Source: Ginglymostoma cirratum
Taxonomy: Eukaryota
Direction: 5' to 3'
Length of the DNA: 64,000 bases
Assembly: GCA_024137785.1 (NCBI GenBank)
Contig: JAHRHZ010000267.1
Span: 21,665,100 to 21,729,099, forward strand
Below the pieces are notes generated by a model. The model was given only the letters and a program-made list of their open reading frames with translations, was not told where the DNA came from and ran no database searches. Below are positions 1,373 through 59,954 of the stretch, piece after piece. The position numbers and the translations under genes are program-made. The number at the start of each line of letters is the position of its first letter. The stretch's first letter is position 1.

Positions 1373-1969
1373 TTGTTCAATACTGCATTTCACTAATGGC
1401 ATGACATGCCAATGCTCGTAACTGTGCATGCACAAAGATCGTGTGGTGCTCTGGCTCCTGCATTTGGAACAAACAAACAGTCTGTTTAAACTGTGGCATC
1501 CCTACATTTGTCCTAATTAGTGCAAGACAAAAGGCTGGAGCCACTGGTCTCTCTTTTTTGAAATATTCAAATTCTGCACAGGGTGAACCTGACACAGATT
1601 TAGTTACCGTAGGCTTAGCTGTCTTAACGTTTCCCTTCAGCAATTCCAATTTGCTACTGTTTGTGGGCTACACAAATGACACTGATTCATATTTCACCGC
1701 ATCTGTTCAAATTTATTCCAAAAATGGAACCGGATATAGAGCTACATGCAGTGATAATAAAGGGTAACTTGGTGACAGGATACCGGTCTTCGTGGAGTTA
1801 TTTCACTGCATGCTATCAAAAATGCGACTTGCTTTAGCTTCTGGTTTGATTGTACATTAAATATTCAAAATATTAGTGAATAATCCAGTTCTACAGTCTA
1901 CAAATCAAATGCCATTCGTTTAGATTGTGGCTAAATGAAAATGAGAAGTGGTCAGATTCGTTGTGATTT

Positions 1970-12900: not shown

Positions 12901-13761
12901 CCAACACAGACCATTAAATCTCCTCCTCCCTTGCCTCTCCAACATCTTTTCAAGCAGTACAATGTGCCCTTCACCAGGTAGGGAACAGATATGTAAAATT
13001 GTCAACCCGACTTTAATGGATGCTACTCATCCCCTTTTAAATTGAATAAACTACAAACTTACAGGTAAATTCTCTCAAAACTGGTACCCTCAAAGCCAGT
13101 GGGTCAAATGAAGCACTTGAACCTTGGGAATATACCAGCACACGAGCAAGAGAACAGCTAACAAGTTCAGTGCTATATTACACTTAGCCAAATTGTCCAG
13201 GTAAGTTAACTGTAATTGAGAAATAAAGAAACAAAATGCCTGACATATTCTAAAAATATCTGGTTTTCAGACAATTCCAGTTTTGAGACAGCCAATGCAC
13301 TACCCACTACACATCCTCTCATTCTTCCTTTGGTCAGCTTCTTGCACTAAGGAGCCATGGTCAACATTCTGGCTGTCCATCCACCAGTCCTCATCCTAAC
13401 CCTCCAAGAAATTAAAGTTCCACCGGTTGGATAGGATCATTTTCAGCTGATCCTCATTCTATATCTCACCTGAGCTCTCCTTACTGGGTACTCTGCTGGC
13501 CATATTAAAATGGTTCCGATCCTGCATCTTTTGTACAAAGTCTGACCAAGATCCGAAGAAACTCTGTAGAGTTTGTCACCCCTCCCATAAATGACAGAAT
13601 GTATCCCACTCAAACTCCAGGTCAGTGAGTGAGAGTTTCAGAGGTTAAAACAGAGACATTTACTTCAGGCCTATGCCACTCAGGGTAATCGTGCTTTCCT
13701 CAAATTTCCATGCAGACTCTCGATTTCCGTGTCATAGGGAAAATCCAGCCCAGTGTGTCAG

Positions 13762-13860
13762 TTCTGAGGAAAGGTCACCGGATCCGAAAGATTAACTCTG
13801 TTTTTGCCTTCACAGATGTTGCCAGACCTACTGAGCTTTTCCAGCAATGTTGTTTTTGTT
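13762..13860 (+). mobile_element. Minimal PLE-derived family B element (HHR motif plus 3' arm) with TSD
   Basis: ctgagga-aaggtc-accg-gatcc-gaaagattaactc followed by the gatgttgccagacctactgagcttttccagca arm; flanked by ccagtgtgtcag (13750-13761) and ccaatgtgtcag (13861-13872). Confidence 0.75.
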
Positions 13861-13889
13861 CCAATGTGTCAGCCTTTGTTACAGAAGAG

Positions 13890-23139: not shown

Positions 23140-24165
23140 CCACAGAAACATGGAAAATTGGAACAGGAGTAGGCCATTCAGACCTTTGAGAGTGTTCCAG
23201 CATTCAATGTGATCGTGGATGATCATTCAACTGAATGCCCTGTTCCCACTTCCTCCTCACACCCTTCCATTCCGTTCGCCCGAAGAACTATATCTAAGTC
23301 CATTTTGGAAAACATTCAATGTTTTGACCTCATTACTTTCTGTAATAGAGAATTCCACAGGCTCACCACTCTCTGCGTGAAGAAATTTCTTCTCATCTCA
23401 GTCTTCAATAACCTACCCCATACACTTTTTTTGTGACACTATGTTCTGGCTCCCCAGTCATCAGGAACATTCTCACGGTCCTGTTAGTTTCTATGAGATC
23501 CCCCTCATTCTTCTAACTCCAGTGAATATAATCCTCATCAATCTAGTCTCTCGTCATGTGTGAGTCCACTATCTGGAATCAGTCTGGTAAACCTTTGTTG
23601 TGATCCCTCCATAACTAGAACAATCTTCCTCATAAAAGGAGACAAAAACTGCACACAATATTCCTGGTATGGTCATATCAAGGCTCCGTATAACTGCAGA
23701 AGGACATCCCTGTTTCCTGTATTAGGATCTTCTTGCTATGAAGGCCAACACCCCACTTGCTTTCTTCACCACCTGCTGCACCTGCATACTTACTTTCAGC
23801 GACTGGTGTAGAACAGCCAGGTCTTGTTGCACACTCCCTTCTCCTAATCAATCGCCATTCAGATAATAACCTGCCTTCTTATCTCTGCTAACAAAGTGGA
23901 TAACTTCACATTTATCACCTTACACTGCATTTGCTCACTCATTCAACTTGTCCAAATTACACAGAATCAGCTCTGCAGCTTCCTCACGGCTCACCTTCCT
24001 ATCCAGCATTGTGTCATTTGCAAACTTGGAGCGATTACTTATATTTCCTTCATCTAAATAATCAATATATATTGTGAATAGCTGGGGCCCCAGCACTGAT
24101 CTTTATGATACCGCACTAGTATCTGGCATTTGGAAAATGATCTGTTATTTATTCCTATTCCATTG
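23140..24165 (-). mobile_element. CR1 LINE 3' portion
   Basis: Terminal gaaacatggaaaattggaacaggagtaggccattcagacc; gtgtcatttgcaaacttgg (reverse complement KFANDT); ggccccagcactgatc (reverse complement GSVLGP). Confidence 0.88.
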
Positions 24166-24851
24166 ATTCTGACCTACAAGGAAAAGTTACAATAAATATT
24201 GTTCAGGAGCTGCTCTTCCAATCACAGACTCACTATTTCTGGAAAGCAGCAACCTATCAGCAGACAGAAGCAGCCTCTGATTGGAGGAGCTGTGAGAAAG
24301 TTGAGTGGCAGCAGTGAACCAAGCTGTCCAGGTCGTGTATACAGGGTGGGAGAAAGTGTGGCGAGAGGAACAGAATGGCAAGTCTGACCTGGGATTCAGT
24401 CGGCCGACAGAATGTGGAGTGTAACTGTAAAGTATGGGAGAGGAGCTTCAAATGGAGTGAAGCCAGCAGCAAAAGCGGTGTGGGAAAGGGGCCACAAAAG
24501 GTCAGAAGAGGGCCTTCAAAGGGCAACAAGAGGCTGCATTGTGGGGAGAGGATTTGAAAAGAAAAGGGACAAGTTATAAAAAGGAGAAGTAAGAAGTAAG
24601 ACTTTCAAAAAAAAATAATGTGGATGCTGTTGTCATGAACTCTGTGTTAGTTATGTAATTTAATTCTGAACTGTTTATTTCATAAAGATTTGCTTTGGTG
24701 TTATCAGAGCTCAAAGCATCTCACCACACTGTGAATTACTTGAGGTGCAAGGAATGTGTTAAAAACAAAGTTGCAACCCGTGAACTAGAGATAACAAGGT
24801 GTGGAGCTGGATGAACACAGCAGGCCAAGCAGCATCATAGGAACAGGAGAG

Positions 24852-24885
24852 CTTGACGTTTCGGGCCTAGACCCTTCATCAGAAA
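24852..24885 (-). ncRNA. Minimal type I hammerhead ribozyme motif
   Basis: Minus-strand RNA uuu-CUGAUGA-A-GGGUC-UA-GGCCC-GAAAC-GUC^-aag: full core, stem II, palindromic ACGU stem III, short stem I. Confidence 0.78.
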
Positions 24886-24909
24886 TGTCTGTTATTTATT
24901 CCTATTCCA

Positions 24910-24943
24910 TTTCTGATGAAGGGTCTAGGCCCGAAACATCAAG
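24910..24943 (+). ncRNA. Minimal type I hammerhead ribozyme motif (stem III mutated)
   Basis: ttt-CTGATGA-A-GGGTCTAGGCCC-GAAAC-ATC-aag; GTC changed to ATC, consistent with CpG decay. Confidence 0.65.
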
Positions 24944-27900
24944 CTTTCTTGCTCCTATGATGCTGCTTGGCCTGCTGTGTTCATCCAGCTCCACACCTTG
25001 TTATCTCGGATTCTCCAGCATCTGCAGTACCTTTTATCTCTGCAACCTGTGAACTAACCAGTCCATAAAAAAAAGTGTGTTTATGGTGCTATCTTATGCC
25101 TGTTGTCTTGTGACAATTTATATGCTGTGCAGTCTAGGAAATTAATACCTTCCCTGTGTATTGTGGCTTTAGATTTAATGGCATGCCGATAGTTATTGAG
25201 GATACTGTTGCGTTCTTCTAATTCTGTTTCTGTTTAAGTCTCAATATCCTATGTGCAGCGCCTACACTGGAGATAATGTTACAATTTGAATGCATCACCT
25301 AATAATGGATTTAGCAAGAATGAAGTAGGAGCCCAGTAAACCAAAAGGCAACACCCAAAAATCAAAAAGTTGTCATCAATAAAATCTCAAGAGAAGCCCT
25401 CACCAATGTGCCAAAAAATAATCGGTGTCAGTAGTAAACAGGAATTGTATTCTTTTTCCACTCGCACTCATAAGTAGCAAAAACATGAAAGGCTAAAGAC
25501 TTTTAAGGTTTTTAACATAGTTCATCTAAAGCACTATGAGAGGTACAGATGGGACAACGAAACGAAAAACCAAACATATGGTGATATTTATTCTGAAACA
25601 CAGAACAAGTAAAAAGAAACACATTTTAAGAATCAGATTTGCTTTCGGTGACTGGGTTAGCATTTAGATATCGTGGCAATAATTCAGAGTAACAAGAATT
25701 AATTTAATTCATACTTGTCTATCTAACAAGATCTAATAATCCATGGTTTAGTTTAAAAAAGTATTTTTTTTTTTAAACTGCATTTCTTCTATCTGTAGAA
25801 TTTTCACCGTCCTGGACATTCAGCTTCTGCAATCTTTGGATACCACACATTTGGCTGGTGACCACTGGCTGAAGGATGTGCTCATTGGCATGTTCCTTAT
25901 AAGGTAAATGAAGTGTCATTCCATCTCCTGTGGTTAGTTTCCCTGAACCATCTCAATCAACAGCCTAGTTCTAGATGTACAAGGATCCTCGTGACTAATG
26001 CTAGCACTCCTCCAAAGTTGAAAGTGCACTCATCAGTGTTATTGCAATCTGTCTATATCTCTGCAGAGGAGACTAAACTATTCATTTTATACAAATCTAT
26101 GGCACGTCTGCCGTGGATCCTCCAGCAGAGACCATGTCTTATGAATTTCAATTCTCCCTAATATACAGGTATCATCACTGAGCTATACATCACCAGAATG
26201 ATAGAAAATCAATAACACAGCAATTCCATCTACAAGCTTGACACAAGAAAAAAATCCTCAGGAATATTGCTAAGTGATTGAGAGAATTTTGTAACCTGTT
26301 TGAAAATTAACCTGTATATAGAATTCTGGTAGGTATATTTGCAGTGTCACAAAGACAATCAGGCGATAGCAGATAGCATATATAAGAAAATGAAAAGTTG
26401 TGAAGTTTAAAGTTATCTCCTGCGTATCACTAACAGTTTTTGAGTTTATTGAGTTGTCTATTTTTAAAAAAAAGTACCATTAATTCTTGGATAAGAATCA
26501 GTTTTGGCATGTCAACATGATCTATTTTCTAGATTATAAACTGCTCTAGAGATAGTTCTTACCCTCCAGTCTTACCAGGGTCAGCTGTTCTTTTATCAGT
26601 GCATTTATTAAAAATAAAGGGCTAGAGTTAGCCATGTTGTGTTCAGCCACAGCCCCCAGAAAGCAACTGTATTACTCTGGAGCTATAACAGAGCATGGCC
26701 CGTTATTCCCTAGTTAATATTAGCAGTGGCTCAATTTCAAAGCATATCATTTGATAGCCCTTGCTCCAGGCTGTACCCCTGTCAAATTTTCTACAAAAGA
26801 GCCTGCTCTGGGACTCTTTACAGCACTACCGTTAATCAACAGAAATTATGCAGCAAAGAAAGTAGAAGGCTCTCCATGCGACCCTGGGGACACAGAAAGA
26901 GGGAACGACCAGTGCACATGGAAATGCTGCTGTAACTTCCAAATGAAGCTTGAGCACTCCGGGGACTCAAAATTGGGTCTGACAGTCTGTTACCACAGGT
27001 GCACCATTTTTACAAGTGATAGCTCTGTGACTACATGACTTCCAGCTGTTGTGATCAGCCATCAGTCTGCATTAACCCTACAGTACCTCATCTGTGGTAC
27101 GTCAAGTTACAGCATTCCTAAAATGCAAAAGCTAATTCCAAAAGAAAAATTCTTCCTTTCATCTCTGTCAGAAGAGATCAGTGACAGAAGGTTTTCCATT
27201 GTTCCTGAATTAACTTTCATATATTCCAGTTTCATTTACCTCCATTGATATAAACATTAATCGTGAAAATTGTGAATAGATTTTCTTCTGTTCTTTCTAC
27301 TCTTTTAGTACATATCAAGCAAAAAGATAAATACCTGTACTGTGCTGGTGAACATTTATGAATGTAATAGTTTAAGTACATAGAATTAAAATATAAAGAC
27401 TATTTTGTAGATATGCCATCCATTTCCCTAACGGAACGGCAACAGATCAATACAATCGCCTCATTTAGATTTTAGTTTGCTCAGTCGTATAGGATAAACA
27501 ATTTATATGCATGCCCATTATTCCCATTGATTGTTAACTCTTATATCATAAGTGATGAGGCAAAGAATTCTGTCCAAGTCATTCCTATTTACATCCGATT
27601 AAGATTTATACTAACTGTCGCCTAGAATCATGATGTTATGGTTGAGGATAAAATACCACTGTGTGATGATCTCGCTGCAAAAGCAATTTGATAAATTAAA
27701 TTTGCCAAACATTGGAGAGAAGGAACCTCCAGTTTTGACACGCTCACTCTTACCTACCATCGTAGCTTGCTGCTCCTTTCAATCTGGACTTTGAAAGCTT
27801 GACCCTCCAACTTCTAGAGCCCCCTTCCACCAATCTCTGCCATTCTTAATTGGAATGATGATCCCACCCCCTTCCCCTTAGTGGATCACCCATGGGCATA

Positions 27901-31635: not shown

Positions 31636-32192
31636 TAGTTGACTGAAAAATAAATATGATCTGATAACCACGATGGAGACATGGCTGCATGGTGACAAGG
31701 GTAGGTCCTGAATATTTATGGGCATATAACATTACAGAAGATTATTAAGCCAGGTAAAGGTGGAAGGGGAAAACTAACAATGCTGGCACTGGTGCAACAG
31801 TTAGGGATAACCTTAGTTCAGGAGATCAAGAGGTAGAATCAATTTGGATTGAGTTGAAGAATAGTAGAGGAAATAAGTCATGAGTAGGGACAGTTTATAG
31901 ACTCCCAAACAGAAACCATGATGCAGGATTAATTCTACAAAGAAATACTGAGTGCTCGTGGTAAAGGCAAGGCAATAATCATGGACAATTTTAATCCACG
32001 TATAAACTGCAATGGTAGTCTGGATGAAGAGTTCAAAGAATGTTTTTGAGATATTTTCTTAGAGCATCACATTCTAAAACACACCAGGTTATAATAGAGA
32101 TAAAAGGTACTGCAGATGCTGGAGAATCCGAGATAACAAGCATGGGGCTGGATGAACACAGCAGGTCAAGCAGCATCATAGGAGCAGGAAAA

Positions 32193-32226
32193 CTTGACGT
32201 TTCGGGCCTAGACCCTTCATCAGAAA
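32193..32226 (-). ncRNA. Minimal type I hammerhead ribozyme motif, intact
   Basis: Minus-strand RNA uuu-CUGAUGA-A-GGGUCUAGGCCC-GAAAC-GUC^-aag. Confidence 0.78.
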
Positions 32227-32232
32227 TGGGGG

Positions 32233-32332
32233 NNNNNNNNNNNNNNNNNNNNNNNNNNNNNNNNNNNNNNNNNNNNNNNNNNNNNNNNNNNNNNNNNNNN
32301 NNNNNNNNNNNNNNNNNNNNNNNNNNNNNNNN
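32233..32332. other. Assembly gap (100 N)
   Basis: Run of N; the same 32 nt (ttcgggcctagacccttcatcagaaatggggg) flanks both sides. Confidence 0.99.
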
Positions 32333-35300
32333 ATTCGGGCCTAGACCCTTCATCAGAAATGGGGGAGGGGAAGAGGGTTCTGAAATAAATAGGGAGAGAG
32401 TGGGAGGCGGATAGAGGATGGATAGAGGAGAGGATAGGTGGAGTGGAGGCAGACAAGTCGAAGAGGCAGGGATGGAGCCAGTAAAGGTGAGTGTAGATAG
32501 GGCAGTAGGGAGGAGATAGGTCAGTCCAGGGAGGACGGACAGGTCAAGGGGGCGGGATGATGTTAGTAGATAGGAGATGGGGGTGTGGCTTGAGGTGAGA
32601 GGAAAAACAAGTTAGGGAGGTGGAGATGAGCTAGAGATAAAAGGTACTGCAGATGCTGGAGAATCCGAGATAACAAGCATGGGGCTGGATGGACACAGCA
32701 GGTCAAGCAGCATCATAGGAGCAGGAAAACTTATAATAGACTCAGTTTTGTGCAATATTAGAGGATTAATGAACGACACCAGAGTTTAGGTTCCCCTAAA
32801 TAGCAGGGACGACAACATTTTACATCGAGTCTGAAGGGGAGAAGAGTGGGTCTAAGTCTTAAGCCTAAGTAAGGGCAATTATGTTGACGTGAAAGTTGAG
32901 CTAGCCAAGGTGGACTAGGATAAGCAGCTAGGGGATAAATGAATAAGAAAGCAGAGGCAGATATTTAAGGGATATTTCAGAACACTCAGAATGAACATAT
33001 TCCTATGAAAAAAAAATTAAAATGGAGAACCACCAGCTGTGGTTAAGTAAGAGGCTAAGGAAAACAGCAAACGTAAGGGAAAAGTATATTATTCCACAAA
33101 GGTGAGTGGCAAATCAGATAACTGGGCAAAATATAAAGAACAGCAGAGAATGTCCAAGTAGATTAATACAGAGAAAGAAATTAAAGAATGAGAGGAAACT
33201 AGCTGGAAATGTAATAATGGATCGCAAGAGCTTCTACAGATATTTAAAAAGGAAATGAGTAAATAAAGTGATTGTTGATTCTCCAACTGTGAGAATGGGG
33301 AGTATGAAACTCAGAATACGCTTAAATGGATCTTTTTCAGATCAGAAGAGAGTGACAAGGGGAGTCATGCAGGTGCCTATGCTGGGGCCTCTACTTTGTA
33401 CAATTTACATCGGTGACTTAGATGAGGGGAGCAAAGGCATGGTAGCGAAACTTTTACCTGACAAAAAGATAGGTAGAAAAGCATGTTGTGAAGAGGATAT
33501 GAGGAGGATGCAGATAGTCATAGAGTGGGCAAAAATTTGGCAAATGGAGCATACATTGGCAAATATGGGAAAAATGTGAGGTTGAGAACTTTGGCCGGAA
33601 AAGTAGTAATGTGTAGTATTACTTAAGTTCTGACTGCAGAGTTTTAAGGGCAGAGAGTTCTAGGTGTTCTAGTACATGAGTCACAACATGTTAGTATGTA
33701 GCAATTAATTAAAAAGGGTAATGGAATACTTGCCTTTATCACAAGAGGAAATGAAAACTAAATCAAGGAGTTACACTTCAGTTTTGCGGAGCATGAGCAT
33801 GATCCCAAGTAAGTGTGTTAGAGGTGGTTCGAAGTAGGTTTATTCTGGAGGACAGGTTGGACAAAATGGACTTACATTGGTGCTTAGAACAGTGATGGGT
33901 GACGACTGAATTTTGCGAGATTCTGAACAGTGTTGACAATGTGGATGTTACAAGAAAGGTTCCTCTTGTGGGTGAGTCCACAATTAGGAAGCAGTTTAAA
34001 AATTAATGGTCACAGCTTTAGAGAGACATTTTTCCTCTGACAGCTGCCAGAATTTTGCAACACTCTGTCTCCAAACATGTTGGGGTTGCCTTAGAATATT
34101 TTTAAGATGGAGGTAGACAGATACTCGTTCGGCAAAGGAGGCACTGGGATTAGATGGGAAATTGAAATTCAAAATGCATATAGATCAGGCATGATTTTAT
34201 TGCATGGCGAAGCAGGCTATAGGCAGCGAATGGCCTATTTCTGCCCCTAATCTGTATATTCATTTCTCAAACTCTCAAGCTGTGAACAACCACAACGGAT
34301 GTTACTGATTTAATACACCAGTGATTTTAGTAAAGAACTCTGAACTTGTGACATGATCACAGGGGTCAGACAGCAATGTTTTGCCATCTACTTTTAAAAC
34401 AGAGAAACAAAAAGACACAATCCTTCCAGCAAGGAGAGACCATCCGAAAATCATTGAACTGGTCGTATAGTTCCCTTGCAGCTAATGTACTGAACAGCTA
34501 TACTTCAAAGTGAGAGAAGGAGTCTCCCCACACTGTTCTAATTTCAGGTTCAACTGAGAGCTGACCAGCCACAATTCACTCAAGAAGCCTTGGAGTTCAT
34601 TTAGAGACCTCGGCTTTCCAAGACCTTCATTCCAGCCAAAGCATCAATACATCTAAGAAATTACAGGGCTGTTATGTAAGTGAGATGGACACAACAACAT
34701 ATTGTAATCATATCGTCCAAGACACAGGCAAGAAAACGAAGGTATTATCTGTGTAGTTGACCACTGGGTATATGGGCTCAAAAGGCACTGGCTTGATACT
34801 GACAAAACTCATTCACAGCTGACTTTTTCAGGCACCAGAGATTAGAAGTATTCATCCCATCAAAGCAGACGAGAATTAGGCAGTAAAGACAAATGGGCAG
34901 GATGTTAATCCACTGCTCCAAAACCACGAAAGAATTCTTCCAGAGAATTTGTTCATATGAGAGGCAGCCTAGAGCTGCAGTCTAACAACCCCAAAGATCT
35001 TTGGTGGACAAGCTGACCTAACCCAAGCTCACTTACACGAAAAAAAAGTACATTGCAGGCAATCCCCTGAAATGTGAAATGTGATGGTGCTGAAACAGGG
35101 AGGAAATATAAGATTATGCACTAAAAAAAATTAAATAATACAAGGCACTTCTGTGATATATTTCAGAATATCAAACATAATGATGTTGTCCCACACTCCA
35201 TGTTCATATATTAAGCTGCTTGGGATGAGTTCAAATGTAACAGATGTGAGTGCTGCAGCAGGATCTTTCCCCAAGAGGCCAACAATTTTGAGAACAGGCT

Positions 35301-41445: not shown

Positions 41446-41645
41446 AATAAAAACAGAAACGGCTGGAGAAACACCGCAAGTCTGACAGTTAACGTCAGAA
41501 GTTTTGGAGAAGGCTTGAAGAAAGTTTTGAAATGTTAACTCTGTTTTCTCTTCACAGATCCTGCCAGACCTGGTGGATTTCATCAATAATTTCTATTTTT
41601 GTTTGTTTCACATCTCCAGCATCTGTAGTTCTTTGTTGTGATTTA
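41446..41645. mobile_element. Old PLE-derived family B palindromic element
   Basis: aaaaacagaaacggctggagaaacacc...gttaacgtc opposite gaaatgttaactctg...ccagacctgg...ctccagcatctgtagttc. Confidence 0.65.
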
Positions 41646-47540: not shown

Positions 47541-47737
47541 AATAAAAACCAAAAGAACTGTGGATGCTGTAAATCAGGATCAAAAACAAAGTTGCTGGAA
47601 ATTAACGTTTCGGGTCCGGTGACCCTCAGAAGAGTTCTGAGTTCTGAGGAAGGGTCGTCGGAGCGGAAATGTTAACTCTGTTTTCTCCTCCACAGATGCT
47701 GCCAGACCTGCTGAGCTTTTCCAGCAACTTTATTTTT
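47541..47737. mobile_element. PLE-derived family B palindromic element with two degenerate HHRs and 15-bp TSD
   Basis: ttaacgtttcgggtccggtgaccctcag (minus HHR) and gagttctgaggaagggtcgtcggagcggaaatgttaactc (plus HHR); TSD gttcaaaatatgttt (47526-47540) and gttcaaaataagttt (47738-47752). Confidence 0.82.
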
Positions 47738-47837
47738 GTTCAAAATAAGTTTCTCTTTTGAGAATTTCTCCAGAGGTATTTTTAGTTCTCACCAAGTCTT
47801 TTATTGGGTGATGCAGTTATATACGAACAACACTTCT

Positions 47838-48101: not shown

Positions 48102-48934
48102 CACCACAGCTAAATAGGTGCATGTTTGTCTTTAAGACACCTTAAATAATACAACAAATGTGAGATGCTTTTAGATGTGAGAACAGATTAATGCAAATCT
48201 TTGTGAAATAAAACTGTTCGGCATTAAATTATCCGATTAGTACAATTGCAGCCATTATTCCTTTGTAAAAATGGATATGATATTATTCCTCCCTTTGCAT
48301 TCCCTCTACTCCTTGGAGTGCTTCCTTCCCACTTCTTCCTTCTAGCTCCTCTTTACACCTTCTCTCTACCTTTGTTGTTTCTCCCCAACTCTTTGCAGCT
48401 TGTCTCCCTTCCTTTGCTGTTTTTCTCATCCTTTGGCAGCTCCTCTTCCCCTTTTTCAATTCCTTAGCAGCTCTTCTACACCTCGTCAGTCCCTTTTTCT
48501 CTTCGACCGTCCTAGCCCCCAGCTTCCTTCCCATCAGTCCAATGGCACAGCAGCTTGTGCCTCTTTTCCTTGTTGCCACACCCTCAGGCCCTGTGACCTC
48601 CAACCCTGCTACTTGTACCTCTGCTGTCATCAGTCTGGCCTCTCCTGTGTTTGTCACCGAAACGCTCCTGTATATTTTGAGCGTTGGTATACAGCTTTTC
48701 AGCTCTTTCTGTAAGAAACATACGTTGAGGTCCTCCCAAACACTGGACACATGACTTTTTCCAGACCTGCTGAGTTTCTCCAGCAATTTCTGTTTAAGTA
48801 GGCATGTGCATTGTGAGGAAGATGTAAAGTGGCTTCAGAAGGATTTGGAAGGCTTAGTGAGTGGGCTGGAACATGGCATCATGACATAACTTTATGATGT
48901 GTCTTCAAAGTAGCTTCCCAAAAGATTGTTATCA

Positions 48935-50070
48935 TGACATCAGGAGTGCCACAATATGAGCAATTAACCAATCACAGGATAGGAAGGAATGTGCTGGCAT
49001 GGATGACTGACTGTCTGTTAAGCAGCGAGTAAGAATAAACAGGTCATTCTCACATTGCCAGGTGATGACTAGTGGGATACCACAAAGACCAGTACTTAGG
49101 GCCTCGCTGTCCAAAACATACATCAATGATTTGGAATTGGGGACGAAGTGTAATATTTCCAAAATATACAGATGATACAACGCTAGGTAGGAACTGCAAA
49201 ATACTAAAACAAAGAACTGCAGATGATGGAAATCTCAAACAAAAACAGGTATTGTTAGAGAAACTCAGCAGGTCTGGAAGAATCTGTGGAGAGACTGCAG
49301 AGTTAATATTTCGAATCCAGACTTCATGTTCTGACGAAGGGTCACTGGACTCGAACATTAACTCCGTTTCTCTCTCTCCACAGATGCTGGCAGACCTGCT
49401 GAGTTTCTCCAGCAATTTCTGGTCATGTTTAAGTAGGAATGTCTGCTGTGAGGAAGATGTAAAGTGGCTACAGAAGGATTTGGATAGGTTTAATGAATGG
49501 GCAGGAACATGGCAGTGGAAGATAATGTGGAAAATGTGAGGTTATCCATTTTGGCTGGAGAAAACATTGGTGCAAAGTGTTTCTTAAAAGGAAAGTGGTT
49601 GGAAACTTTAGATGTACAAAAGGGACTTAGGTGTCCTTGTTGCTAATTCACCAAAGGCTGGTGCAGCAACCTAATGGGTAAGCTTATAGAATGTTAGCCT
49701 TTAATACAAGAGGATTTGAGTACAGGAGCAGTGGAGTCTTGTTTCAATTGGAAAATAGCTTGGGTGGAGCACACACAGTACTATATGCATTTATCATCTT
49801 TTTATCTCAGGAAAAGATATTATTGCCACGGACAGCGTGCAATGAAGGTTCACCAGACTTGTTCCCACTATGATAGAACTATCCTTTAACGAGACATTGG
49901 GCAAACTTGGTCTAAATTCGATAATGTTAAGAACAGCAGGTAATCTCATTGAAACTTACAAAATACGTAAACAGATAGATGCCGGAAAGATGTTTCTCCT
50001 GGTTGGGGACTAGAGAAACTGGGAGCACAATTTAACAGTAAGGGAACTATCACTTTAGTTTGTGATGAGG
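48935..50070 (+). mobile_element. CR1 RT to near 3' end, interrupted by a PLE-derived element
   Basis: agtgggataccacaaagaccagtactt (SGIPQ), KYTDDTTLG, EEDVKWLQKDLDRFNEWA. Confidence 0.85.
49200..49423. mobile_element. PLE-derived family B palindromic element
   Basis: Inverted arms gagaaactcagcaggtctg and cagacctgctgagtttctc; HHR motif ctgacga-agggtc-actg-gactc-gaacattaactc. Confidence 0.8.
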
Positions 50071-50800: not shown

Positions 50801-51423
50801 CAGTTAAGATCATTCATTCATTAACATACAGAAGAGGTTTAAATTTCCCAAAACTTTTCACTGCGCTAGCGAATAGCTGTAGGCGAGGTAAATGGGTAAG
50901 GTGGCATGTGGTGAGGTTAGGTCAGGTTGAGTCAGTTAGAGAGTTTGGAAGATTCAAGTTGTGGCAGGGAGAGGGATTTGCACAGTTGGTGGAATCAGAG
51001 GGTCCGCGCAGTGTGCCAGAGGGCAGCGGTGGGGCTGGCGGTGGCAGTGTTAAGCAGAAATTGGAGGAATGTTCAGTCAAATAGACAGGAATAAGAAATG
51101 TTTTTTTATTTGTATAACAACTTGTGAATAACTTTCAGACTCAATAATAAACGAGTGGAGTGCTTTAATTACCGTCCCTATCTTCTAATGACGATGAGGA
51201 CACAATAATTAAAATTAATGTTGGAGGGCCTGTTATTAAAGACAGGTCTGCAATCTCTGGTTTTGAAGCCAATATTACTCAATTGACTGTTCCCTCTTAG
51301 AGGAACAAAAAAATCAAAATAATGCAGATCTTGGAAATCCGAAACAAAACTGGAAAATACTGAAAACATTCAATAGATCTGGCAGTTTCTCTGGAGAGAA
51401 AAACAGAATTAACATTTCGAGCA

Positions 51424-51542
51424 ACCGAGATAACAAGCGTGGGGCTGGATGAACACAGCAGGTCAAGCAGCATCATAGGAGCATGAAAACTTGACGTTTC
51501 GGGCCTAGATCCTTCATCAGAAACAGTACCTTTTATCTCTGA
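51424..51542. mobile_element. Young PLE-derived family A element: inverted arm plus 17-nt terminal stub, 14-bp TSD
   Basis: Arm gagataacaag...catcagaaa followed by cagtaccttttatctct (51524-51540) in the opposite orientation; TSD taacatttcgagca at 51410-51423 and 51543-51556. Confidence 0.87.
51490..51523 (-). ncRNA. Minimal type I hammerhead ribozyme motif
   Basis: Minus-strand RNA uuu-CUGAUGA-A-GGAUCUAGGCCC-GAAAC-GUC^-aag; one stem II mismatch. Confidence 0.68.
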
Positions 51543-52914
51543 TAACATTTCGAGCAGATGCCTTTTTGTCAGTACTGTCAAAAATTGGGACAGCAGTTAA
51601 AGAAATTCAAAGCAGGGAAGAGGATAAGATAAAACACAAGGGTGATGGCTGTGATGGGGTGCAAGGCAGGATTGACAAAATGGGTTGTCAATGGGACAAA
51701 CATACAGAAAGCCAGAGAAATTGTCAATGACAGTGGTGATGGCAGTAGTTATGTTCCAGAATTGTTGAACTCCAAGTTGAGTATGGAGGGATGTAGAGTT
51801 CTGGCGAAATGTTATCAATCTACAAAGTTGAGAGTTTTCTGGAGATGCTGCCTGACCTGCTGAGTATTTTCAGCATTTTCTATTTTTATTTCCATCATCT
51901 GGAATGGTTACGTCAGTTTCAAATAACCGGTAAAGCAATTATTTACTGGCACAGAACTATTCACTGCCATGTAATACTGAGAAACCAAGTCCAGATCAAT
52001 TAACTTCAAAACGCTGATTTTCATCAGTGCATGGTTTAAACAGTTATTCTGTGATTGATCTTCCTGGCCAGAGCAAAGATCTTGGTTTTATATTAAAACA
52101 AGTTCTCTTCTCAAAACATCTGAATTGCAGCAAATGCTTATATAGTGTTGTCTTTGATCCTGCAGTAGATTAGAGATTTGTATTCTGATAAATAAGCGTT
52201 TCTGCCACTGTTCTATACTGGCATATCTGCTGCAAAGCTGCTGCACTCTTGCAAGAGGTAGTGCAAAAAGAGGACTTGCAGAATGACAATGCGTTGTTGC
52301 ATTGAGCTCGTACAAAGTAGTGTGACATTTGTAGTCTGAATTTTACCAGTCCTCCAAGTTGTTGGAGTTTTGAATTACTTATGCAAGCCATGCCAATATA
52401 ACAGATGACAACAGCAGATAAAAAGAAATACAGACTGGTCATGTTGGATGCTACTTAGAACATGACAAGATTTTCCTCAAAAGACCAAATATCCCTACAG
52501 AATTTTCACCAATGATTTACCTAAAGTATGTGGCTGCTAATGATAAAGTAAAGCCGAACGTATTGCACTGGACAAACACAAATCTAAATCAAAGTAAACC
52601 TAAGATGTCAAATGGCAAATTTAAGATTGAGCACTAAAATAGTGAGGCATGATGACCTGCTTGAGCAAAAAACGTTGCTGTTGCTTTGGGACATTGATCA
52701 TTGGTATCGAAATATCAACCTGCAATTTGATTTCGAGGTCACTAAGATCAGCTTCAAAGCACATTTTTAATAGCGTTACTCTTAGAGGCATGTTCCACAT
52801 GGGGATTTGGCTTTAAGTAAACATAATTTCAGAATAACAAACGTGCCAAGTTCCTCATAGGTATAGATTTTATTTTGCCTCTGAAAACAATAGTTATATA
52901 ACATCAAACACCAT

Positions 52915-58525: not shown

Positions 58526-58737
58526 CAAAAAAAAACCTAAAGAACTGCGGATGCCGTAAATCAGAAACCAAAACAGAAGTTGCTGGAAAAGCTCAGCAGG
58601 TCTAGCAGCATCTGCAGAGAGAAATCTGAGTTAATGTTTCGGGTTCTGTGGAAGGGTCACCGGTCCTGGAACGTTAACTCATTTCTCTTCACAGATGCTG
58701 CCAGACCTGCTGAGCTTTTCCAGCAACTTTTGTTTTG
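58526..58737. mobile_element. PLE-derived family B palindromic element with 13-bp TSD
   Basis: Inverted arms aagttgctggaaaagctcagcaggtct and agacctgctgagcttttccagcaactt; HHR-like ctgtgga-agggtc-accg-gtcct-ggaacgttaactc; exact TSD ctttttattttct at 58513-58525 and 58738-58750. Confidence 0.85.
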
Positions 58738-59954
58738 CTTTTTATTTTCTTACATTGAGGAATTATATCCAAAAAAAATTTTGCTTTGTGGAAAGAGGTT
58801 CCAGGCTACAGCTATACTGGAAGGTATTTGTATTGTCCAATGTTCAGCAAGCACAGATGAGTTACAGTGCCAAGTACAGCTCATATTAAACTAAACAATA
58901 CTGAAGGTCTGCTCACGTGCGCTCCAAACCACAAATGCAGGACTCTACGCTCTAGGTAGTCATTTTTGACATGAAAAAGCAGGCAAAGTTTGTAGAACTC
59001 AAGTAGTGTGAGGATACCTAAGTTAAGGTTGGGGTTGACACCTGCTTCACAAGACCCAGGTGTTGACAGCAAAAGAGCATCATAACAAGAACTAATGTTG
59101 AAGTTATTAGGGCAGGGATAAATACATTTTAAAAGTAAAATCTTCTGTGTTCTTGCATTAATTCACATGAGTAATATCACTGGTAATATCAAAGAGATGT
59201 TATGATGACTGATGACATCACTATGAACTGTTTGTGCATTTGTCCAAGGGTTTCTCAAAGATTTGTGGAAGCAGAGATGGGAACATTTGTTTCAAGATAT
59301 AATGGCAAACAACTGGTGAAGCTGCCAAACTCAAAAAAACACATTTGCGCTTGAGGGTTCTTGAGATTGTTGACTCAGATTGTGATGCACCCAGTGTGAT
59401 TTAATGACAGGCAGGTTTTCCCATTTTTGAAGTTAGTGCTCACCAAGGACAGATTTTGCCCTGTATCAGAAGGAAACAAAGAAATATAAGGACCAGATTG
59501 TCAGGCTGACACATTCCTCTCTCTGGGTGATATTCCTGGAGGAAGGTCATCGCTGACACAGTCAAAATAATTAGATATAAATTTGCAGGCTGATTAGGAA
59601 TTTCACTGGGATCCTCCAAACGTGGAAGGGACCTTGACTGAGAGCTAAGTGCAGCAGATTCCTGGGGGTGGCAGGCCAACATAGGACCACCAAGCCTCTT
59701 GTTACAACTCCCCACATTCCACCCATAATCCTTAAAAGGTGGGCCTAAAAGTGGCCTATTAGTTGGGGATGCCTCGGAGGAGATCTCTCAGGGAGGCACA
59801 CTGATAAACAGTACTGGGAAATGGGGGAGTGGAAATGATACTACCCTTTCATCACGACTTTTAAAGGTCACAGGATTCCACTCATAGTTTTCCACACTGA
59901 AAATGAGGAGGATGGCAGATTCCACTCCTGTCTGGGACTGAAATAACTGCTGTT

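What the first reader, a model, noticed from the sequence alone, without database searches (positions are those of the whole stretch)
24133..24911. Palindrome loop is an exact 24-nt copy of genomic DNA ~750 bp upstream
Seen: tctgttatttattcctattccatt occurs at 24141-24164 (end of an old CR1 fragment) and again at 24888-24911, where it forms the spacer between the inverted arms. The donor is flanked by aaatg and catt, which match the inner ends of both arms (gaaatg and catttc). Inference: during integration the polymerase or repair machinery switched template onto nearby chromosomal DNA or nascent RNA through microhomology, then returned. This bears on how inverted PLE structures are joined.
Basis: partly seen in the sequence, partly recalled or inferred. 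Interest (0 to 1): 0.72.

Follow-up and report, generated by a model that had tools for sequence, protein, structure and literature searches.

The report
Retrotransposon halves patched with local DNA
A small Penelope-type retrotransposon inserted as two head-to-head copies that were joined by a 19-base patch copied from chromosome DNA about 600 bases away; this is a real repair scar of a kind already known from other retrotransposons, and it hints that such inverted structures are finished at the insertion site.

Summary
An exact 24-mer lies at 24141-24164 and 24888-24911, with no other hit in the window. It sits in the centre of a 253-bp Penelope-like (PLE) insertion, 24788-25040: an inverted arm, a direct arm with a 33-nt tail, hammerhead cores and a 16-bp target-site duplication. 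Contigs of two related species cross the site without the insertion and already carry the donor region, which lies inside a decayed CR1-like LINE. So the spacer was copied locally, from 607 nt before the target site. One correction: only the right junction has true microhomology (5 nt). On the left the donor has an extra, ancestral A. Best model: both target strands primed reverse transcription, giving two same-sense cDNA ends that cannot anneal, and end-joining bridged them with a templated insert. A later break at the palindrome centre, or a nascent-RNA template, cannot be excluded. It is not the rule: 0 of 7 other junction zones in the window, and no convincing case among 16 PLE junctions from other animals. 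Templated inserts are known for L1 and for Pol-theta repair; my searches found none reported at a PLE inversion junction. A single fossil event of modest interest.

The parts
24135..24139 (+). 5-nt match (AAATG) to the inner end of the inverted arm, separated from the copied segment by one uncopied A at 24140
   Evidence: (blastn 29/30 with one gap)
24141..24164 (+). Donor 24-mer, inside the 5' part of a decayed CR1-like LINE fragment on the minus strand (LINE label from motif resemblance, recalled)
   Evidence: region covered in relatives B and C and identical in organism A run X1
23146..24173 (-). Decayed CR1-like LINE 3' fragment hosting the donor (bounds approximate); its translation shows a SVLGPQLF...FANDT stretch
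   Evidence: no Pfam or meaningful PDB hit for the short stop-free pieces
24772..24787 (+). Left copy of the 16-bp target-site duplication
   Evidence: single copy at the empty site in relatives
24788..24887 (-). Inverted pLTR arm, 100 nt, starting at the first preferred 3' end of the family; intact minimal hammerhead core at 24858-24882
   Evidence: loose ends pile up at 24787-24789 in 4 of 4 runs
24888..24906 (+). 19-nt templated insert (non-element core of the spacer), same orientation as the donor
24907..24911 (+). 5-nt microhomology (CCATT) shared by donor and element
   Evidence: the element has a C-run then ATTT here in the copy at 32096-32233
24908..25007 (+). Direct pLTR arm; hammerhead core 24913-24937 with a CpG-type G>A change at 24938
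25008..25040 (+). 33-nt PLE tail, present on this arm only; ends at the second preferred 3' end, with 1-2 nt overlap into the duplication
   Evidence: loose ends at 25041-25042 listed for 2 of 4 runs
25041..25056 (+). Right copy of the 16-bp target-site duplication (one mismatch, at a CpG)

Best explanation
A double target-primed insertion whose two cDNA ends were joined by a locally templated bridge. SHOWN: an empty ancestral site; a 16-bp duplication; two head-to-head arms from one subfamily, starting at the family's two preferred 3' ends 33 nt apart; both arms stopping at the same template position just 5' of the hammerhead core; a 19-nt direct copy of upstream chromosome between them; donor left intact. 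INFERRED: (1) the element's endonuclease nicked both strands 16 bp apart. (2) The bottom strand was extended from the tail end of the RNA, the top strand from the pLTR end. (3) Both cDNAs stopped at the start of a G-rich tract and, having the same sequence, could not anneal to each other. (4) After about 0.6 kb of resection or strand opening on the left, the bottom-strand cDNA end paired by 5 nt with the exposed top strand at 24160-24164 and copied about 19-25 nt. (5) It let go and was joined to the other cDNA end using the offset 5-nt match, losing one base. The polymerase is unknown: host Pol theta is the usual author of such inserts, and the PLE reverse transcriptase is the alternative. The product is a neutral fossil with no function implied.
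For: Empty site: B contig covers 24072-24787 then 25068-26200 with 10 letters between (11 expected); C contig covers 23900-24774 then 25068-25222 with 23 letters between (24 expected). The arms share 4 subfamily-diagnostic differences absent from 3 other window copies. Arm starts coincide with family-wide loose-end peaks. This matches the Poseidon protein in vitro, which cleaves and extends both strands from two internal start sites bounding the tail (PMC11167929). A second inverted copy, 51425-51542, has an arm stopping 2 nt from the same point although it has no central palindrome, so the stop looks intrinsic (n=1). A bridge between same-sense ends needs a segment flanked by a short inverted repeat: with 5-nt ends there are 0 such loci within 100 nt and 4 within 700 nt, and the donor is one of them. 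Direct orientation, size under 25 nt and microhomology priming fit Pol-theta-type templated insertions (PMC12426944).
Against: The left junction has no exact microhomology, and the lost A needs an extra slip or a later deletion. The donor is not the nearest possible bridge: 25177 is nearer, though with a longer loop. L1 templated inserts usually come from within 15 bp of the site (10.1101/2024.08.27.596794), while this one needs about 600 nt of exposed DNA. The same final sequence would follow from a later centre break. An old 115-nt direct duplication 630 bp apart at 48762-48875 / 49391-49512, not at a PLE centre, suggests such local copies also arise without PLE integration. The 4 arm mismatches cluster in 15 nt (p about 0.008), which the model does not explain. 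No listed read piece spans the spacer.
Confidence: 0.6

Rival explanations
1. Post-integration centre-break revision: the element first inserted as a perfect or near-perfect palindrome, which later extruded, was cut at its tip, and was repaired by host end-joining with a templated insert from the resected left flank.
For: Predicts symmetric arm ends and the same direct-orientation insert. Unspaced palindromes are nuclease targets and spaced ones are not (PMC3300023 passages; the centre-break paper was seen only as a reference title there). Another local duplication at a similar distance exists away from any PLE centre.
Against: Needs two events. The copy at 51427 stops at nearly the same position without a palindrome, so symmetry needs no centre break. 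The element offers no self-complementary motif at this stop that could have made a perfect join (one search shows a G-rich tract).
Confidence: 0.2
2. The PLE reverse transcriptase jumped from its own RNA onto a nascent host transcript covering the donor, then the ends were joined.
For: A precedent exists for L1: nearby pre-mRNA co-inserted (10.1101/2022.05.18.492429, one passage). No long resection is needed. Either transcription direction could serve, depending on which cDNA copied.
Against: No host gene was identified: 76 candidate exons and ORFs gave no Pfam hit above cutoff. The sequence cannot tell an RNA from a DNA template.
Confidence: 0.1
3. Snap-back: one cDNA jumped to the donor, folded back on itself through the short inverted repeat and copied itself to make the second arm.
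For: Explains the mirror-symmetric ends directly.
Against: The inverted arm begins exactly at a family-wide preferred 3' end, as independent priming predicts; fold-back copying has no reason to stop there. It also leaves the missing A unexplained.
Confidence: 0.05
4. Not local: chance, capture from another LINE copy elsewhere, or a local assembly error.
For: Genome-wide uniqueness is untested, and a 19-nt core is expected about 0.4 times by chance in a 4-Gb genome. The spacer is not seen in the listed read pieces.
Against: The 24-mer is expected 3e-10 times within +-1 kb. Other LINE copies in the window are far from identical there. The donor and the right outer junction are seen in an organism A run, and the site is cleanly empty in relatives.
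Confidence: 0.05

Closest known systems
Penelope/Poseidon-type PLE insertions with inverted 5'-truncated pLTR and tail (PMC8557442, PMC3846280, PMC11167929)
   Same: Head-to-head inverted copy next to the direct pLTR, 33-nt tail on one end only, target-site duplication, minimal hammerhead in the pLTR, partial tandem copy elsewhere in the window.
   Different: The passages read describe palindromes or overlaps at the inverted junction, and 0.9-1.5-kb captured host spacers between direct repeats in Adineta Pen1; they do not describe a short copy of target-adjacent DNA between the inverted arms. No ORF here.
L1 templated insertions and twin priming (10.1101/2024.08.27.596794; PMC11702581; 10.1101/2022.05.18.492429)
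   Same: Both target ends primed, duplication preserved, nearby genomic sequence copied into the insert (22 cases in a set of 3,598 in one study; three in another).
   Different: L1 templates are typically within 15 bp of the site, against 607 nt here. L1 inverted and direct parts overlap little (median duplication 22 bp), whereas here the same 100 nt are copied twice.
Pol-theta-mediated end-joining templated insertions (review PMC12426944)
   Same: Under 25 nt, primed by a few base pairs, copied from flanking DNA, donor intact.
   Different: Joins two cDNA flaps rather than two chromosome ends; enzyme dependence untestable; donor relatively distant.
5' extra nucleotides of zebrafish ZfL2-2 LINE inserts (PMC4245944)
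   Same: Extra junction bases derived from flanking sequence and proposed to stabilise end synapsis.
   Different: Those lie at the cDNA-chromosome junction, not between two inverted cDNAs.

Membership tests
Penelope-like element (Penelope/Poseidon type) | pLTR containing a minimal hammerhead motif (core, extra base before helix II, G-C closing pair, palindromic helix III position) | tested here: met
   Cores at 24913-24937(+) and 24858-24882(-); 4-bp helix II folds; features as in PMC4209133 passages. Rfam gave no hammerhead hit at E<=1, and activity was not tested.
Penelope-like element (Penelope/Poseidon type) | Inverted 5'-truncated copy adjacent to the direct copy; partial tandems | tested here: met
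   partial tandem at 32096-32732
Penelope-like element (Penelope/Poseidon type) | 30-40-nt tail at one end, between two preferred 3' ends | tested here: met
   33-nt tail 25008-25040; loose-end peaks at both sites
Penelope-like element (Penelope/Poseidon type) | Target-site duplication | tested here: met
   16 bp here; 14 bp at 51411/51543
Penelope-like element (Penelope/Poseidon type) | Single ORF with telomerase-like RT and GIY-YIG endonuclease | not testable with these tools
   No genome held; no such domain among 76 window ORF pieces. The family could be non-autonomous; the clade name rests on structure only.
Pol-theta-type templated insertion | Insert is an exact short copy of flanking DNA, donor intact | tested here: met
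Pol-theta-type templated insertion | Microhomology at the priming junction | tested here: met
   5 nt at the right junction
Pol-theta-type templated insertion | Microhomology at the resolving junction | tested here: inconclusive
   5-nt match offset by one ancestral base
Pol-theta-type templated insertion | Dependence on POLQ | not testable with these tools
   Fossil event
L1-type twin priming | Inverted and direct segments come from adjacent, largely non-overlapping parts of one RNA | tested here: not met
   The inverted arm duplicates the same 100 nt as the direct arm; it works like twin priming but is not filed as such.

The most novel reading that the evidence does not exclude
Head-to-head PLE structures are generally built at the chromosome by double target-primed reverse transcription, and because the two cDNA ends have the same sequence a sizeable share must be bridged by DNA copied from up to a kilobase away. 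The very many copies in these genomes would then be a fossil record of germline resection length and end-joining, and would argue against pre-formed self-primed hairpins.
Probability: 0.12. Interest if true: 0.6.

Novelty: new variant of a known kind. Interest (0 to 1): 0.33.

Why it matters
How PLEs form their tandem and inverted structures is described as undefined (PMC8557442). One proposal is self-priming on an antisense template (PMC3846280); in vitro work shows both target strands being extended (PMC11167929). A target-derived patch exactly between the arms shows that this junction was made or remodelled on the chromosome, which fits double priming followed by end-joining. One event cannot settle the mechanism, and a later repair gives the same scar. 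It does suggest a cheap genome-wide test.

Tried and rejected
Whole-genome search: no genome held. Rfam: only sub-threshold miRNA-hairpin hits caused by the palindrome, no hammerhead model; not a miRNA claim. Host gene: 76 candidate exons and ORFs against Pfam gave 0 above cutoff, with best DUF1181 at E 4e-5, below cutoff and treated as chance. The candidate exon 25799-25903 is crossed unspliced by an organism A contig and differs in relatives. No RNA holder listed, which is no evidence either way. LINE identity of the donor by Pfam or PDB: no meaningful hit. The 24-mer in viral contigs: 0 hits, uninformative. Other window junction zones: 0 of 7 with a local match above 10 nt within 1.5 kb, against a background mode of 8-9 nt; 396 of 399 random zones gave 13 or less, and the three higher ones (17, 34, 35) were not inspected. 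Metagenome scan: 43 loci, 28 PLE-like, 23 independent, 7 dropped for loops of 5 nt or less, 16 tested; best p 0.11 in the strict test. In a looser test 2 of 16 beat 60 shuffles: L017 matches its own reiterated element fragment, and L007 has an 11-nt A-rich match 209 nt away that 29 of 1000 real 23-mers also reach, not significant over 16 tests. These are other families and animals, with 1.7-4.8 kb of often one-sided flank. The bridge count used a wrong offset and was discarded; one search replaces it. The donor hairpin folds no better than shuffles (z -0.2). Head-to-head joints table 5 were not used as evidence for a stop site, because subfamily differences and the palindromic reference confound them. 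Earlier scan notes: none found. Supplements of PMC11702581 (its Fig. S10, templated cases) could not be read and may hold donors at comparable distance.

Full report
OBSERVATION. The 24-mer is identical at 24141-24164 and 24888-24911. It has no other match in the window at up to 3 mismatches, and 0 of 100 shuffles reached 2 matches. The arms are 24788-24887 and 24908-25007, with 4 transitions at 24938, 24946, 24949 and 24952. Under a Markov model of the window the 24-mer is expected 3e-10 times within +-1 kb, and the 19-nt core 2e-7 times. The foreign core is 19 nt, because the last 5 nt are shared with the element. The upstream aaatg is separated from the copied segment by one A, and that column is invariant in 4 of 4 LINE copies aligned. 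The pre-insertion distance is 607 nt to the target site.

ANATOMY. The insert is 24788-25040 (253 bp), between two copies of a 16-bp duplication that differ at one CpG. Both arms carry a minimal hammerhead core with the traits listed for PLE ribozymes in PMC4209133 (passages); Rfam does not detect it. Only the direct arm has a 33-nt tail. Tail, inverted truncated copy and partial tandems are the standard PLE features (PMC8557442 passages; PMC3846280 passages and section 6). A partial tandem of the same family lies at 32096-32732, and a second inverted insertion at 51425-51542. No RT or GIY-YIG ORF was found among 76 pieces tested, so the clade label rests on structure. The two arms share four differences that the three other aligned copies lack, so they come from one subfamily.

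DIRECTION AND TIMING. The donor is in register with a decayed CR1-like LINE on the minus strand, and other copies in the window align to that segment at about 60-66% (the CR1 label is from recalled motifs, with no database hit). I laid 4 of the 24 listed runs. In relative B one contig covers 24072-24787 and then 25068-26200 with 10 letters between. In relative C one covers 23900-24774 and then 25068-25222 with 23 letters between. An empty site predicts 11 and 24. Both relatives therefore lack the insertion and have the donor region; whether their 24-mer is identical was not among the rows shown. In run X1 (organism A) the donor region is identical. One low-depth contig bridges the right outer junction (38 element letters, 4 differences), and another enters the left arm by 23 letters. 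No listed piece spans the spacer. X10 gave no piece across either junction. Flank divergence is 3.5% to B and 7.0% to C. Two derived changes per 100 nt in each arm are compatible with insertion soon after the split from B, within wide error.

MECHANISM. Loose ends of family contigs pile up at 24787-24789, 25006-25007 and 25041-25042, which are two preferred 3' ends 33 nt apart. The inverted arm starts at the first and the direct arm at the second. The Anolis Poseidon protein cleaves and extends both target strands and starts at two internal sites that bound the tail (PMC11167929, parts 1-2 of 4 read). So double target-primed synthesis is the natural reading. Both cDNAs stop just before a G-rich tract, and the inverted arm at 51427 stops 2 nt away although it forms no central palindrome. 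Two cDNA ends of the same sequence cannot pair, and a bridge must carry a short inverted repeat at its ends. With 5-nt ends there are 0 such loci within 100 nt of the site and 4 within 700 nt, and the donor is one of them, though not the nearest. A direct copy from the left flank is what results if the bottom-strand cDNA end primes on the exposed top strand of the opposite end, extends, lets go and rejoins. That is the scheme for templated insertions in PMC12426944 (passages). Steps after priming, the roughly 0.6-kb exposure, the lost base and the polymerase are all inferred. I give this 0.6; a later centre break of the palindrome 0.2; a nascent-RNA jump 0.1; snap-back 0.05; non-local or artefact 0.05.

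GENERALITY. In the window 0 of 7 other junction zones have a local match above background. A pattern scan of metagenome contigs gave 43 loci, of which 28 were PLE-like, 23 independent and 16 had loops long enough to test. None passed the strict test (best p 0.11). One weak candidate (L007, p about 0.03 uncorrected) and one case of reiterated element sequence (L017) came out of a looser test. These sets are small, old or from other animals, so they show only that local bridging is not the rule. An older 115-nt direct duplication 630 bp apart at 48.8/49.4 kb is not at a PLE centre, which suggests such copies also arise in ordinary repair.

COMPARISON. Templated local inserts are known for L1: 22 cases in a set of 3,598, typically within 15 bp of the site (10.1101/2024.08.27.596794, section 4 read). 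PMC11702581 reports three cases near the site (section 7 and passages; supplements unavailable), and 10.1101/2022.05.18.492429 a nearby pre-mRNA capture (one passage). Zebrafish LINE 5' extra bases come from flanks (PMC4245944 passages). Host DNA capture between direct pLTRs is described in Adineta. Seven full-text searches of an open-access library returned no report of a target-derived patch at a PLE inversion junction; subscription papers are not covered. PMC9977147 (passages) and 10.64898/2026.07.22.740005 (abstract and passages) added nothing on this point.

VERDICT. Real, local and correctly oriented by outgroups. It works like a Pol-theta-type templated insertion at a double-primed PLE junction. 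It is a new variant of a known kind, seen once. The 4 clustered arm mismatches (p about 0.008) remain unexplained. Interest 0.33.

Noticed in passing
window 51411-51556: Second family-A inverted insertion, inside an older family-B element: 14-bp duplication, inverted arm of about 99 nt joined directly to only about 18 nt of tail, no spacer; its arm stops 2 nt from the same point as the arms at 24788-25007.
   Followed up: yes
window 32088-32740: Family-A partial tandem on the minus strand whose 5' end lies within 2 nt of the predicted hammerhead cleavage site, with a duplication of about 8-10 bp; a 100-N assembly gap at 32234-32333 repeats about 30 nt on both sides.
   Followed up: partly
window 48762-48875 and 49391-49512: Old direct duplication of about 115 nt, 630 bp apart, spanning a family-B PLE end and its LINE target; probably another locally templated copy, at a distance similar to the main finding.
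   Followed up: partly
window 24938-24952: All 4 mismatches between the two arms fall within 15 nt around the hammerhead cleavage site (p about 0.008), two derived in each arm; unexplained.
   Followed up: partly
window 41447-41640, 47552-47740, 49205-49430, 51300-51890, 58540-58750, 13760-13864: Older family-B hammerhead-bearing PLE copies, several head-to-head; the centre at about 47630-47650 shows a short reiterated motif, suggesting iterative synthesis at the junction.
   Followed up: partly
L017 1122-1437: Inverted PLE insertion from another animal with an 18-bp duplication and three reiterations of a 12-nt hammerhead fragment at its centre.
   Followed up: partly
L007 2415-2732: Inverted PLE insertion with a 16-bp duplication and a 23-nt loop, 11 nt of which match DNA about 40 nt beyond the right duplication; weak candidate for a second local template.
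   Followed up: yes
window 1643-1762: Sub-cutoff Pfam match to DUF1181 (E 4e-5) in a candidate exon; probably chance.
   Followed up: no
window 24810-24971 (reads, table 5): Contigs of relatives show many head-to-head joints of this family, some at high depth, suggesting amplified short palindromic subfamilies.
   Followed up: no
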